From contig CBDEFQ010000009.1 of assembly GCA_965237485.1 (NCBI GenBank), forward strand, positions 1,241,778 through 1,305,777: DNA of 64,000 bases, written 5' to 3'. A program made the position numbers and the translations under genes. This document shows, piece by piece, positions 32,385 to 53,618 of the stretch. The notes beneath the pieces are model-generated. The model had not been told where the DNA came from, ran no database searches, and saw only the letters and a program-made list of their open reading frames with translations. How positions within the stretch are numbered: position 1 is the stretch's first letter; every line of letters begins with the position of its first letter. The stretch comes from Candidatus Poriferihabitaceae bacterium (GTDB taxonomy: Bacteria > Pseudomonadota > Gammaproteobacteria > Arenicellales > Poriferihabitantaceae).

Positions 32385-32547
32385 CCTAGATAAATCAGTT
32401 AAAACACGAAAGTCCATGCAAGCTCTTGATGCACCTAGCAAAATCAAAAAAAACCTTATCACCAATAAGGTAACCGCGACTTTTTTGATTTCACTATGCA
32501 CTTCAATTGCTTACATGTCTTTTCCGCGTTTAACTGATTTATCTAGG
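32385..32547 (-). mobile_element. 163-bp foldback MITE, subfamily 1
   Basis: It sits at the same site in the IS66-family transposase as the other three copies. Here its inner end directly abuts the 183-bp deletion. Confidence 0.88.
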
Positions 32548-34364: not shown

Positions 34365-35117
34365 AATGTCGCCCTGCCACGGATGTCGGTCACTGGCCTT
34401 TGAGCTTTTTATTGTCTGGCGTTACCCAATGCGCTAAACGATAGCGGGTGGTATGAACCTTGATAAGCAAATCTTGCACTACAAAATCCCGATAGCCTTT
34501 AAAGCGAGAACCTTCGGGCACGGACTTCGCTGGTTCAATAACCCGATTTAGGTCAATTGACAGCCTTGGTGTTTTCTTTGCCTTGTTCGACCCAGCTCGC
34601 TGCTTAGGTTTGTCGCTAGAAGATGAACGTTTTGGCTCTGTTTTCTTATCCATATTACCGCCCTTAACAGTAGGCCGCCTCTTCTGCCCCTTAAGGATAT
34701 TGATTTCATCTTTAAGCAATGCTATTTCTTCGTCCTGTTGTTGAACTCGCACCAACAGCTGCTCCACTAGCACCCGCAACATTTTTACTGCGGGGGTTTG
34801 TTCTTGTTCAGGAATGTCGGGAATAGAGGGTAGCTTACTCAAGGTCTTAAACGTCCGTTAACTGGATAGACCTTAGTGTACCATCGGTTTTGAAAGTCCA
34901 ATTTTGCCTTCTCAACTGCGCCACAACGAACGTTAAGAAGACACCCCTGAACGTCCTTAAGCGATCTTTGTTATTAGCGTAAAGGTGCCTACAACCACCC
35001 TGGAACTCAACCTAAATCGAGTCACTCGACCACGTTGAATTACCTTCCTTTTAGCGTAAAACCCTGTCAAGAAATATTTTGTTTTATTTTACCTGCCACG
35101 GGTTATTGAGAAGTTAC

Positions 35118-39539: not shown

Positions 39540-39702
39540 CCTAGAAAACTCAGTTGAAACACAAATGTCTGCACAACTCTTTAATATGCCTAAGAAACCC
39601 AGAAAAGCACTCATCACCAATAAGGTGACCTCGTATTTTCTGACTTCCTTATTCATATCAATTAGTTACACATCTTTTTTGCGTTCAACTGGGTTTTCTA
39701 GG
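39540..39702 (-). mobile_element. 163-bp foldback MITE, subfamily 2
   Basis: Mirror of 48281-48443. Confidence 0.88.
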
Positions 39703-47936: not shown

Positions 47937-49895
47937 TTGAGTAAGCTACCCTCTATTCCCGACATTCCTGAACAAGAACAAACCCCCGCAGTAAAAATGT
48001 TGCGGGTGCTAGTGGAGCAGCTGTTGGTGCGAGTTCAACAACAGGACGAAGAAATAGCATTGCTTAAAGATGAAATCAATATCCTTAAGGGGCAGAAGAG
48101 GCGGCCTACTGTTAAGGGCGGTAATATGGATAAGAAAACAGAGCCAAAACGTTCATCTTCTAGCGACAAACCTAAGCAGCGAGCTGGGTCGAACAAGGCA
48201 AAGAAAACACCAAGGCTGTCAATTGACCTAAATCGGGTTATTGAACCAGCGAAGTCCGTGCCCGAAGGTTCTCGCTTTAACCTAGAAAACCCAGTTGAAC
48301 GCAAAAAAGATGTGTAACTAATTGATATGAATAAGGAAGTCAGAAAATACGAGGTCACCTTATTGGTGATGAGTGCTTTTCTGGGTTTCTTAGGCATATT
48401 AAAGAGTTGTGCAGACATTTGTGTTTCAACTGAGTTTTCTAGGTTTAAAGGCTATCGGGATTTTGTAGTGCAAGATTTGCTTATCAAGGTTCATACCACC
48501 CGCTATCGTTTAGCGCATTGGGTAACGCCAGACAATAAAAAGCTCAAAGGCCAGTTACCGACATCCGTGGCAGGGCGACATTATGGGCCTCGTCTGGTCA
48601 GTTATATTCTCTATCAATATCATCATTGTCAAACCACGCAACCACTCTTGTTGGAACAGTTGCGAGAGTGGGGAATTGATATTTCTTCGGGACAAATTAA
48701 CCCAATACTGATCAGTGCTAAAGAGCCCTTTCATGCTGAGAAAGAGGCGTTACTAAGCGTTGCTCTGAGCGCATCGTCTTACGTGACCGTGGACGATAGT
48801 GGTGCTCGCCATCAGGGCAAAAATGGCTATGTAACGCACATTGGTAATGACTTGTTTGCGTGGTTTAAAAGTACTCAATCAAAAAGTCGAATTAACTTCC
48901 TACCGCTATTAAGGGCTGGCAATACGGATTATCGTTTGAGTCAAAGTGCGTTGAATTATAGGCAACAACATGGATTGCCAAAGCAAGCCTTAGCCGCTGT
49001 AACTGAGCACCGGGAACGCCGTATTGCCAACGAGGATGACTGGCTTGAAATGCTCGATAGCCTGTTGATCATTAAGGCACGTCACCGACGTATCACCACC
49101 GAAGGGGCATTACTTGGTAGTATTTTGCATCATGGTCTGTGTGATGACATCGTTGTCGTCAGTGATGATGCAGGGCAATTTAACATTTTGGCTCATGCCT
49201 TGTGCTGGATACACACCGAGCGCTTAATCCATAAGTTGATACCGCTGAACGAGGGACACCGGCAGGGCATGGCTAAAATACGCGACCAAGTCTGGTGCTT
49301 TTATCGGGCGTTAAAAGAGTATAAAACCCAGCCTTGCGAGAACCAACGTAAAATACTTGAGCAGCGTTTCGATGAAATCTTCACTCAACAGACATGCTAC
49401 CAAACATTAAACCTAGATAAATCAGTTAAACGCGGAAAAGACATGTAAGCAATTGAAGTGCATAGTGAAATCAAAAAAGTCGCGGTCACCTTATTGGTGA
49501 TAAGGTTTTTTTTGATTTTGCTAGGTGCATCAAGAGCTTGCATGGACTTTCGTGTTTTAACTGATTTATCTAGGTTAAATCAGACGCTCAAACGAATCCA
49601 TGCGAATCAAGCAGAATTACTGTTGGTGCTAGATCGACCAGATATTCCGTTACACACCAATGGCAGTGAAACAGACATTCGCGATTACGTGAAAAAACGA
49701 AAAGTGAGTGGCTCCACCCGCAGCGATGCTGGCCAGCAGTGTCGGGACACGTTTGCCAGTTTGAAAAAGACCTGCCGAAAACTGGATATATCGTTCTGGC
49801 ACTACCTGACCCATCGACTTGGTATCGGTGAGCAACATATTGATCCTCTGCCAGATATCATTATGGAACGCGCCAGCTTTGCCACGGGTTATTGA
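47937..49895 (+). CDS. IS66-family transposase reading frame, split into three same-phase segments (126 + 373 + 145 codons) by two MITEs
   Basis: Joined without the MITEs, it is a 541-codon frame. It has an N-terminal coiled coil, DDE-type regions VDDSGARH and VSDDAGQF, the IS66-typical CWIHTERL motif and TNGSETDIR. Confidence 0.75.
48281..48443 (+). mobile_element. 163-bp foldback MITE, subfamily 2
   Basis: The element runs CCTAGAAAACCCAGTTGAACGC...GTTTCAACTGAGTTTTCTAGG with TSD TTTAA (48276-48280 / 48444-48448). The empty site is visible in copy R2 (..CTCGCTTTAAAGGCTAT.., 53474-53490). Confidence 0.9.
49412..49574 (+). mobile_element. 163-bp foldback MITE, subfamily 1
   Basis: TSD TTAAA (49407-49411 / 49575-49579). 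It is present at the identical site in all four IS66-family copies. Confidence 0.9.
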
Positions 49896-52865: not shown

Positions 52866-53618
52866 GTAACTTCTCAATAACCCGTGGCAGGTAAAATAAA
52901 ACAAAATATTTCTTGACAGGGTTTTACGCTAAAAGGAAGGTAATTCAACGTGGTCGAGTGACTCGATTTAGGTTGAGTTCCAGGGTGGTTGTAGGCACCT
53001 TTACGCTAATAACAAAGATCGCTTAAGGACGTTCAGGGGTGTCTTCTTAACGTTCGTTGTGGCGCAGTTGAGAAGGCAAAATTGGACTTTCAAAACCGAT
53101 GGTACACTAAGGTCTATCCAGTTAACGGACGTTTAAGACCTTGAGTAAGCTACCCTCTATTCCCGACATTCCTGAACAAGAACAAACCCCCGCAGTAAAA
53201 ATGTTGCGGGTGCTAGTGGAGCAGCTGTTGGTGCGAGTTCAACAACAGGACGAAGAAATAGCATTGCTTAAAGATGAAATCAATATCCTTAAGGGGCAGA
53301 AGAGGCGGCCTACTGTTAAGGGCGGTAATATGGATAAGAAAACAGAGCCAAAACGTTCATCTTCTAGCGACAAACCTAAGCAGCGAGCTGGGTCGAACAA
53401 GGCAAAGAAAACACCAAGGCTGTCAATTGACCTAAATCGGGTTATTGAACCAGCGAAGTCCGTGCCCGAAGGTTCTCGCTTTAAAGGCTATCGGGATTTT
53501 GTAGTGCAAGATTTGCTTATCAAGGTTCATACCACCCGCTATCGTTTAGCGCATTGGGTAACGCCAGACAATAAAAAGCTCAAAGGCCAGTGACCGACAT
53601 CCGTGGCAGGGCGACATT

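What the first reader, a model, noticed from the sequence alone, without database searches (positions are those of the whole stretch)
48281..48443. Diverged MITE subfamily with identical length, termini, apical loop and stop/restart positions
The subfamily-2 copy is only about 75% identical to subfamily 1 along the arms. It still keeps several features exactly:
- a length of 163 bp
- CCTAGA...TCTAGG termini
- the apical GGTCACCTTATTGGTGAT
- a TAA at element positions 35-37
- an in-frame start codon at positions 47-49 (ATG here, GTG in subfamily 1)

The encoded tail (LENPVERKKDV*) and restart peptide (MNKEVRKYEVTLLVMSAFLGFLG..) parallel those of subfamily 1.

The empty site is visible in copy R2 (CTCGCTTTAAAGGC), so this is a recent insertion with TSD TTTAA. 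Retention of these features across about 25% divergence suggests they are selected rather than accidental.
Basis: seen in the sequence. Interest (0 to 1): 0.6.

Follow-up and report, generated by a model that had tools for sequence, protein, structure and literature searches.

The report
Second subfamily of hairpin MITE
This 163-bp stretch is a copy of a small transposon that cannot move itself (a MITE) from a family found in many bacterial phyla and tied to IS1380-like transposases; its length, ends and central hairpin are truly conserved, but the stop-and-restart codons are not.

Summary
The sequence facts hold. Window 48281-48443 is a 163-bp foldback MITE with CCTAGA...TCTAGG ends and a TTTAA duplication, inside an IS66-family transposase gene. 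The empty site is at 53475.

The genome has 115 full copies (99 subfamily 1, 16 subfamily 2). It also has 20 copies of a 1706-bp IS1380-like element with the same ends and the same 5-bp duplications, the likely mobiliser.

Pattern scans found over 200 distinct relatives, in genomes of several phyla and in metagenomes. Their modal length is 163, the arms covary, and a TCACC-N5-GGTGA apex is common. That apex also sits in codons 8-13 of the autonomous elements' transposase genes.

The stop/restart pair is not conserved:
- 13 of 16 subfamily-2 copies have CAA or CCA, not TAA; the window copy carries a derived C-to-T change.
- Across 101 diverse relatives, 43 have the stop and 58 the start, with no association (p = 0.69).
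- There is no Shine-Dalgarno motif, and insertions in genes occur in all phases.

New here: one frame is poor in stops on both strands, and one strand carries an excess of G.T pairs.

The scan had already noted this family in this genome. This is a new member of a known kind.

The parts
48276..48280 (+). Left copy of the 5-bp target-site duplication, TTTAA
   Evidence: The empty site CTCGCTTTAAAGGC is at 53475.
48281..48443 (+). Subfamily-2 MITE, 163 bp, the subject of the finding
   Evidence: There are 16 full subfamily-2 copies in the genome, 6 of them at this same site in copies of the IS66-family element.
48281..48300 (+). Left terminal inverted repeat, CCTAGAAAACCCAGTTGAAC
   Evidence: It matches the left end of the resident IS1380-like element (CCTAGAAAAATCAGTTGAAC) at 18 of 20 positions. 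The commonest subfamily-2 variant matches at 19 of 20.
48424..48443 (-). Right terminal inverted repeat; its reverse complement reads CCTAGAAAACTCAGTTGAAA
48353..48370 (+). Apical hairpin, GGTCACC-TTATT-GGTGAT
   Evidence: The same TCACC-N5-GGTGA motif lies in codons 8-13 of IS1380-like transposase genes. A simple scan also scores it as terminator-like.
48315..48317 (+). TAA at element positions 35-37, derived in this copy from CAA
   Evidence: Position 35 faces a G at position 129 in 93 of 101 relatives, so C and T both pair there.
48327..48329 (+). ATG at element positions 47-49
   Evidence: Across the family this codon is GTG in 45, TTG in 13 and non-start TTA in 24 of 101 relatives.
48444..48448 (+). 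Right copy of the target-site duplication, TTTAA
47937..49895 (+). IS66-family transposase gene cut into three ORFs (47937-48317, 48327-49448, 49458-49895) by the two MITEs
   Evidence: Pfam PF03050 matches pieces 2 and 3.
49412..49574 (+). Subfamily-1 MITE in the same gene, same orientation and same phase
39540..39702 (-). Identical twin of the subfamily-2 copy, in the inverted duplicate of this region
   Evidence: G000:C9:1281317.
53475..53488 (+). Empty subfamily-2 target site in IS copy R2
   Evidence: A second empty site lies at 34495-34508 on the minus strand.

Best explanation
The element is one copy of the smaller of two subfamilies of a non-autonomous foldback transposon (MITE). It is most likely moved in trans by a resident IS1380-like DDE transposase. 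That transposase would recognise the shared CCTAGA...CAGTT ends and make 5-bp AT-rich target duplications.

The family is old and widespread. Its left arm looks like the left end of an IS1380-like element: the inverted repeat, the 5' untranslated block GCAAG..TTGA, and the small TCACC-N5-GGTGA hairpin at transposase codons 8-13. The right arm is its inverted copy.

The termini and the apex are therefore conserved, probably as cis-acting transposition signals (inferred). The length is held at 163 because the two arms must stay matched.

Position 35 is a C/T site opposite a G, so CAA and TAA interchange freely. In this copy the TAA is a secondary mutation. The insertion simply breaks an IS66-family transposase gene, and MITE-free copies of that element can supply its function.

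Shown: MITE anatomy, copy numbers, empty sites, the partner element, family-wide statistics. Inferred: mobilisation in trans, a cis role for the apex, the foldback origin.
For: - Copies: 115 full copies, with lengths 163 (92 copies), 162 (19), 164 (3) and 161 (1). The 5-bp duplications fit a WTNAW-like pattern.
- Host IS66-family element: the subfamily-2 site is empty in 29 copies and filled in 6. The subfamily-1 site is empty in 24 and filled in 10.
- Partner: 20 full copies of a 1706-bp element with ends CCTAGAAAAATCAGTTGAAC and CCTAAAAAACGCAGTTAAAG and 5-bp duplications such as TTCAA, TTCAG, ATTAA and TTTAA. Its transposase matches NF033539 (IS1380 family) at E = 3e-40 and PF13701 above cut-off.
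- ISEcp1, an IS1380-family member, has the left end CCTAGATTCTACGT and makes 5-bp AT-rich repeats (PMC6061673).
- Family: 218 distinct relatives, with 163 the modal length (109 of 218).
- Hairpin: 77.7% of arm positions pair, against 36-48% with the partner slid and 60% with it shuffled.
- Apex in autonomous elements: TCACC-N5-GGTGA begins 23 nt after the ATG in the six elements whose start codon is clear. The base before His is T and His is CAC in all 8 sequences; Gly is GGT in 7 of 8.
- Co-occurrence: 4 of 5 genomes carrying relatives of the partner element also carry family MITEs with matching ends.
- Stop and start.
Against: - No transposition assay exists, so mobilisation by this element is inferred from shared ends and duplications only.
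- Beyond the first 20 nt the MITE interior is not similar to the resident element. The alignment to the 5' regions of autonomous elements rests on short blocks.
- The distance from the end to the apex is 75 nt in the MITE but 84-101 nt in the autonomous elements.
- The transposase scores below NCBIfam's curated IS1380 cut-off (138 against 180 bits).
- Of five further MITE-bearing genomes searched with the transposase, only one had a full-length homologue, two had weak partial matches and two had none.
- The stop at codon 12 is still the commonest stop in its frame (43 of 101). A weak function for it cannot be excluded by sequence alone.
Confidence: 0.85

Rival explanations
1. One reading: the family is selected to carry a stop at positions 35-37 and an in-frame start at 47-49. 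An insertion in a gene would then split it into two translated parts instead of killing the downstream part.
For: - Both window copies in the IS66-family gene are in the one orientation and phase where this could work.
- Subfamily 1 keeps a stop (TAA or TAG) in 97 of 99 copies and GTG in 98 of 99.
- Across phyla, codon 12 is by far the commonest stop position in that frame, and GTG/TTG/ATG occupies 47-49 in 58 of 101 relatives.
Against: - 13 of 16 subfamily-2 copies lack the stop.
- Stop and start are not associated: 26 relatives have both, 17 the stop only, 32 the start only, 26 neither; p = 0.69.
- One clade of 8 has TAA with TTA, so it has no start codon.
- An SD-like 4-mer lies upstream in only 13 of 101.
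- Insertions in ORFs occur in all phases. One sits disruptively in the mobilising transposase gene itself.
- 81 of 97 copies in other genomes are not in long ORFs.
- Subfamily-1 copies are nearly identical, so their uniformity carries no information.
Confidence: 0.06
2. The 163-bp class is selected to be readable, as Rickettsia palindromic elements are. With its 5-bp duplication it adds 168 nt, or 56 codons. One frame stays free of stops in both orientations, so insertions in that phase add a peptide instead of truncating the protein. This would widen the set of tolerated sites.
For: - Mean stops per strand in frame 2 are 0.99, against about 4.0 in frames 1 and 3 (109 distinct 163-mers).
- In the variable arms only, stops per codon are 0.0275 (+2) and 0.0135 (-2), against 0.032-0.069 in the other frames.
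- At cluster level, frame 2 has fewer stops in 26 clusters and more in 3; Wilcoxon p = 9e-6.
- The 174-178-bp sister class, with the same ends and apex, is not open: 2.6-3.5 stops per strand.
- Three host ORFs in this genome read straight through a minus-orientation copy: an acyltransferase-like gene, a membrane-hydrolase-like gene (both labelled by eye) and an unnamed 138-codon ORF. One IS66-family copy reads through subfamily 2 for 509 codons.
Against: - Phase 2 is not enriched among insertions in genes: 6, 4 and 6 in phases 0, 1 and 2 in other genomes, and 5 of 11 host genes here.
- Most of the depletion is already present in the column composition. Observed over expected from column frequencies is 0.82 for +2 and 0.55 for -2, so inheritance from one open ancestor is hard to exclude.
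- 162- and 164-bp copies, which cannot stay in frame, are common.
- Clusters are not phylogenetically independent.
Confidence: 0.35
3. The repeat is mainly a structured RNA or a terminator module that the host uses, and it only looks like a transposon.
For: - The plus strand folds much better than the minus strand: mean -92.3 against -64.2 kcal/mol, and it is more stable in 102 of 103 elements.
- G.T pairs outnumber A.C pairs 832 to 269.
- The apex followed by a T-run matches a simple terminator pattern.
Against: - There are target duplications, empty sites and a partner element with the same ends.
- Orientation shows no bias relative to neighbouring genes: 81 sense to 89 antisense in other genomes, and 73 to 74 here.
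- No Rfam family matches above noise.
- The region between the apical stem and the A/T tracts is mostly unpaired, unlike a canonical terminator.
Confidence: 0.05

Closest known systems
ISEcp1 and other IS1380-family insertion sequences
   Same: The ends start CCTAGA, as in the ISEcp1 left end CCTAGATTCTACGT. Both make 5-bp AT-rich target duplications (PMC6061673). The resident partner's transposase has IS1380 as its best NCBIfam match.
   Different: This element has no transposase gene and is 163 bp long. The partner transposase is a distant relative, below the curated cut-off. No IS1380-derived MITE is mentioned in the 2024 review of prokaryotic MITEs (PMC10969869; one search shows no occurrence of IS1380 in it).
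Rickettsia palindromic elements (RPE)
   Same: Both are palindromic elements of about 150 bp with an open frame, and both can sit in-frame inside protein-coding genes (PMC10969869). Three host ORFs here read through a copy.
   Different: RPEs are found mostly in-frame in genes. Here most copies are intergenic or lie in mobile-element genes, and the phases are even. This family has clear inverted-repeat ends, target duplications and a candidate transposase.
Correia/NEMIS elements of Neisseria, and ERIC elements of enterobacteria
   Same: All are foldback MITEs of 120-160 bp that form long hairpins. ERIC copies carry ORFs and occur inside genes (Delihas 2007, cited in PMC10969869).
   Different: From my own knowledge, Correia elements duplicate TA and are not tied to IS1380. 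The ends and interior of this family are unrelated to either. No orientation effect was seen here.
QMITE1 and QMITE2 of Coxiella burnetii
   Same: Both are MITEs in a mobile-element-rich gammaproteobacterium, overlapping ORFs and serving as targets for other insertion sequences (PMC5896051).
   Different: QMITE1 is about 400 bp with 2-4-bp repeats and QMITE2 about 190 bp with 7-9-bp repeats. This family is 163 bp with 5-bp repeats.

Membership tests
Bacterial MITE | Short, with no transposase gene | tested here: met
   It is 163 bp. The only open frame has no start-to-stop gene of its own.
Bacterial MITE | Terminal inverted repeats | tested here: met
   The ends are CCTAGAAAACCCAGTTGAAC and the reverse complement of CCTAGAAAACTCAGTTGAAA. 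The whole element folds back.
Bacterial MITE | Target-site duplication, with empty sites available | tested here: met
   TTTAA flanks this copy. Most of the 84 flank-defined sites in this genome have matching 5-bp flanks. This site is empty in 29 copies of the host element.
Bacterial MITE | Many dispersed copies | tested here: met
   There are 115 full and 20 partial copies, at 84 distinct sites defined by their flanks.
Bacterial MITE | An autonomous element with the same ends in the same genome | tested here: met
   There are 20 copies of a 1706-bp element. Its ends match at 18-19 of 20 positions and it makes the same kind of duplication.
Bacterial MITE | Mobilisation in trans by that transposase | not testable with these tools
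   This needs a transposition assay.
IS1380 family (for the partner element) | Transposase reaches the family model's curated score | tested here: inconclusive
   NF033539 gives E = 3.4e-40 at 137.9 bits, covering 371 of 419 model positions, but the cut-off is 180 bits. PF13701 scores 82.5 bits against a cut-off of 34.7.
IS1380 family (for the partner element) | Ends start with CC, and duplications are 4-5 bp | tested here: met
   The ends are CCTAGA and CCTAAA, with 5-bp duplications. The family criterion itself is from my own knowledge of ISfinder. The ISEcp1 example is from PMC6061673.
In-frame palindromic elements (RPE-like) | A frame open through the whole element, with an insert length divisible by three | tested here: met
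   163 + 5 = 168 nt. Frame 2 is poor in stops on both strands.
In-frame palindromic elements (RPE-like) | Copies lie predominantly in-frame inside host genes | tested here: not met
   16 of 97 copies lie in long ORFs, with 6, 4 and 6 in phases 0, 1 and 2. In this genome 5 of 11 host-gene insertions are in phase 2.
Stop/restart (translational re-initiation) cassette | Stop and start both conserved and linked | tested here: not met
   13 of 16 subfamily-2 copies lack the stop. Across the family there is no association, p = 0.69.
Stop/restart (translational re-initiation) cassette | A ribosome-binding signal, or overlapping stop and start | tested here: not met
   There is a 9-nt gap. No SD-like motif is present in either subfamily, and only 13 of 101 relatives have one.

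The most novel reading that the evidence does not exclude
A MITE lineage spanning several phyla arose as a foldback of the left end of IS1380-like elements, pivoting on a small hairpin. That hairpin is also conserved at synonymous sites in the first codons of the transposase gene.

The successful 163-bp class is under selection for two things. First, one specific strand must fold, which would explain the excess of G.T pairs. Second, a stop-free frame is kept in both orientations, so that insertions in that phase add 56 residues rather than truncate host proteins. This would be a free-living, multi-phylum counterpart of the Rickettsia palindromic elements.
Probability: 0.3. Interest if true: 0.6.

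Novelty: new member of a known kind. Interest (0 to 1): 0.38.

Why it matters
- For annotation: the family is apparently unrecorded. It has no Rfam match, and no held paper contains its end sequences. It occurs in many phyla and in metagenomes, where it splits or extends ORFs and marks IS1380-like activity.
- For transposon biology: a non-coding element keeps the same small hairpin that sits in the first codons of the partner transposase genes. That points to a cis-acting signal in a family whose transposition mechanism, to my knowledge, is poorly characterised, and it can be tested with simple mutants.

Tried and rejected
- Rfam scan of 48000-49800 at the E-value threshold: only far sub-threshold matches of a long hairpin to plant miRNA precursors.
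- BLAST of the element against PLSDB plasmids: no match.
- Full-text search for six variants of the end sequence: no paper.
- QMITE1 and QMITE2: different sizes and duplications.
- Replication-strand bias from local GC skew: not significant, and the skew in this genome is scrambled.
- Orientation relative to neighbouring ORFs: no bias.
- The 'open frame 578 aa' reported for a MITE-bearing IS1380-like copy looked like a read-through. Direct translation showed a disruptive phase.
- The GTG or ATG at 47-49 as a relic of the transposase start codon: spacing to the apex is 28 nt in the MITE against 23 nt in the autonomous elements, so the frames differ. An ATG at 51-53 fits slightly better but is present in only 20 of 101 relatives.

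Full report
**Observation.** The region 48281-48443 reads CCTAGAAAACCCAGTTGAAC...GTTTTCTAGG. It is 163 bp long and flanked by TTTAA on both sides.

- The apical 18-mer GGTCACCTTATTGGTGAT occurs seven times in the window with up to 3 mismatches, against 0.04 expected.
- The seven copies align without gaps into five subfamily-1 and two subfamily-2 copies.
- TAA at element positions 35-37 ends an ORF (...NLENPVERKKDV*). ATG at 47-49 opens the next (MNKEVRKYEVTLLVMSAFLGFLG...).
- The empty site CTCGCTTTAAAGGC is at 53475 and, inverted, at 34495.
- Identity between the subfamilies is 71.8% ungapped.

**The element in its own genome.** The window is G000:C9:1241778-1305777.

- BLAST finds 115 full-length copies, 99 of subfamily 1 and 16 of subfamily 2. 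Lengths are 163 (92 copies), 162 (19), 164 (3) and 161 (1). There are also 20 fragments, some split by other insertion sequences.
- The flanks give 5-bp duplications such as TTAAA, TTTAA, ATAAT, ATTAA and TTCAA. Grouping by flanks gives 84 distinct sites, because many copies ride inside other multicopy elements.
- The host gene here is an IS66-family transposase (Pfam PF03050). That element has about 35 copies. The subfamily-2 site is empty in 29 and filled in 6, and the subfamily-1 site is empty in 24 and filled in 10. MITE-free copies that could supply transposase are therefore plentiful.

- There are 20 full-length copies (98.9-100% identical) of a 1706-bp element. Its left end is CCTAGAAAAATCAGTTGAAC and its right end, reverse-complemented, is CCTAAAAAACGCAGTTAAAG. 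It makes 5-bp duplications of the same kind.
- The commonest subfamily-2 variant matches its left end at 19 of 20 positions.
- Its 516-aa transposase has IS1380 as best NCBIfam match (E = 3e-40, 138 bits, below the curated 180). It passes Pfam PF13701.
- ISEcp1, the best-known IS1380 member, has the left end CCTAGATTCTACGT and makes 5-bp AT-rich repeats (PMC6061673).
- Beyond 20 nt the MITE interior does not resemble the resident element.

**The family is widespread.**

- A scan of representative genomes fixed only the six terminal bases and the apical stem and allowed 137-187 bp. It returned 105 elements from Gammaproteobacteria, Nitrospirota, Magnetococcales, Zetaproteobacteria, Legionella, Coxiellaceae, Chlamydiae, Bdellovibrionales and others. 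Of these, 62 are exactly 163 bp, with a second mode at 174-177 bp.
- A metagenome scan fixed only the inverted-repeat ends and allowed 150-178 bp. It gave 117 distinct elements, with 163 again the mode (50 elements). The exact apical motif was centred in 40, and degenerate versions of it were common among the rest.
- Median pairwise identity among the 163-mers of the genome set is 66%.
- The arms covary. 77.7% of arm positions pair, against 36-48% when the partner is slid and 60% when it is shuffled.

**Where the apex comes from.** I collected relatives of the partner element from other genomes (45-64% protein identity).

- In the six elements whose start codon is clear, TCACC-N5-GGTGA begins 23 nt after the transposase ATG and encodes H-P-x-G-E.
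- The base before His is T in all 8 sequences, whatever the amino acid. His is CAC in all 8, and Gly is GGT in 7 of 8. This points to a constraint at the nucleotide level.
- A block GCAAG..TTGA in their 5' untranslated region aligns with MITE positions 33-47.
- The MITE therefore looks like a foldback of an IS1380-like left end around that hairpin. This is an inference from short blocks, and the end-to-apex distance differs: 75 nt against 84-101 nt.
- Four of five genomes with such elements also carry family MITEs with matching CCTAAA or CCTAGA ends.

**The stop/restart pair.**

- In subfamily 2, 13 of 16 full copies have CAA or CCA at positions 35-37. Only the window copy, its inverted twin and one older copy have TAA.
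- Of the six copies at this same site, four have CAA. One of them reads through the MITE for 509 codons. The TAA here is therefore a secondary C-to-T change.
- Across 101 distinct 163-mers from other genomes and metagenomes, codon 12 is a stop in 43 and CAA or CAG in 49. Position 35 faces a G in 93 of them, so both C and T pair there.
- Codon 16 is GTG, TTG or ATG in 58 and TTA in 24. The two features are not associated: 26 have both, 17 the stop only, 32 the start only, 26 neither; p = 0.69.
- An SD-like 4-mer precedes the start in 13 of 101.
- Insertions in ORFs occur in every phase. One sits disruptively in the mobilising transposase gene itself. In other genomes only 16 of 97 copies lie in long ORFs, with 6, 4 and 6 in phases 0, 1 and 2.

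It is not met for the length.

**What else is conserved.**

- With its duplication the element adds 168 nt. The frame that starts at element position 2 is poor in stops on both strands: 0.99 per strand against about 4.0 in the other frames, in 109 distinct 163-mers.
- The deficit persists in the variable arms alone. It also persists at the level of 33 clusters, where frame 2 has fewer stops in 26 and more in 3; p = 9e-6.
- The 174-178-bp sister class does not share it.
- Three host ORFs in this genome read straight through a minus-orientation copy. Two plus-orientation copies truncate a TolC-like and an aminotransferase-like gene. These gene labels are mine, assigned by eye from the protein sequences.
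- Phase 2 is not enriched among gene insertions, and much of the deficit already lies in the column composition. I give selection for readability about one chance in three.
- Separately, the plus strand has 832 G.T against 269 A.C pairs and folds better in 102 of 103 elements. Yet orientation is random with respect to neighbouring ORFs and to GC skew. This suggests a strand-specific single-stranded step intrinsic to the element, but it is unexplained.

**Comparison and verdict.**

- The element passes every sequence test for a bacterial MITE.
- It resembles RPE and ERIC in being readable, but it fails the RPE hallmark of predominantly in-frame residence.
- It differs from Correia elements and QMITEs in duplication size and ends.
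- No Rfam family, plasmid record or held paper matches it.
- Earlier notes of this scan had already described subfamily 1 and the IS1380 link; my tests agree with them.
- New here are the derived state of the TAA, the family-wide codon statistics, the shared apex with the transposase 5' codons, the open frame and the strand bias.

This is a new member of a known kind, of moderate interest.

Noticed in passing
L256 (G000:C4:302999-307546), L257, L258, L259, L261, L262, L253: first 45 nt of the transposase ORFs: IS1380-like transposase genes carry TCACC-N5-GGTGA at codons 8-13 (H-P-x-G-E). Synonymous positions are fixed so that the stem pairs: T before His in 8 of 8, CAC in 8 of 8, GGT in 7 of 8. 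It is the same hairpin as the MITE apex.
   Followed up: partly
G242:C1, 8 places such as 377976-378153 (L279, L282, L283): A 174-178-bp sister class of the MITE has CCTAAA ends that match the ends of that genome's own IS1380-like element. This class does not have the open frame.
   Followed up: partly
G000:C10:326879, G000:C6:221756, G000:C10:378458: Minus-orientation subfamily-1 copies sit in phase inside three ORFs: an acyltransferase-like gene, a membrane-hydrolase-like gene (both labelled by eye) and an unnamed 138-codon ORF. The host frame reads straight through, adding 56 residues (NLDKSVKTRKSMQALDAPSKIKKNLITNKVTATFLISLCTSIAYMSFPRLTDLSR + one).
   Followed up: partly
All 103 oriented 163-mers, including window 48281-48443: One strand carries three times more G.T than A.C mismatches and folds about 28 kcal/mol better. 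Orientation is nevertheless random relative to genes and to GC skew. This strand asymmetry is unexplained.
   Followed up: partly
Window 32385-32547 (minus strand): This subfamily-1 copy has unequal flanks, TTAAT and TTAAA.
   Followed up: no
G000:C6:183167-184863, compared with G000:C6:714345 and G000:C10:375422: The site GCTTCATTAA | ATTAAGC(G/A)CC, which for the two MITE copies lies inside a transposase ORF that looks IS256-like by eye, is occupied by the 1706-bp element in one place and by the MITE in two others. It is a shared hot spot.
   Followed up: no
G000:C4:324758: A subfamily-1 copy interrupts a TolC-like gene at codon 42, just after its signal peptide. The peptide after the internal GTG (VHSEIKKVAVTLLVIRFFLILLGASRAC...) is itself signal-peptide-like. 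This is probably coincidence.
   Followed up: no
Window 48354-48370 and 49485-49501: The apical hairpin followed by a T-run matches a simple intrinsic-terminator pattern on the plus strand. A5 and T5 tracts flanking the apex are conserved across the family.
   Followed up: partly
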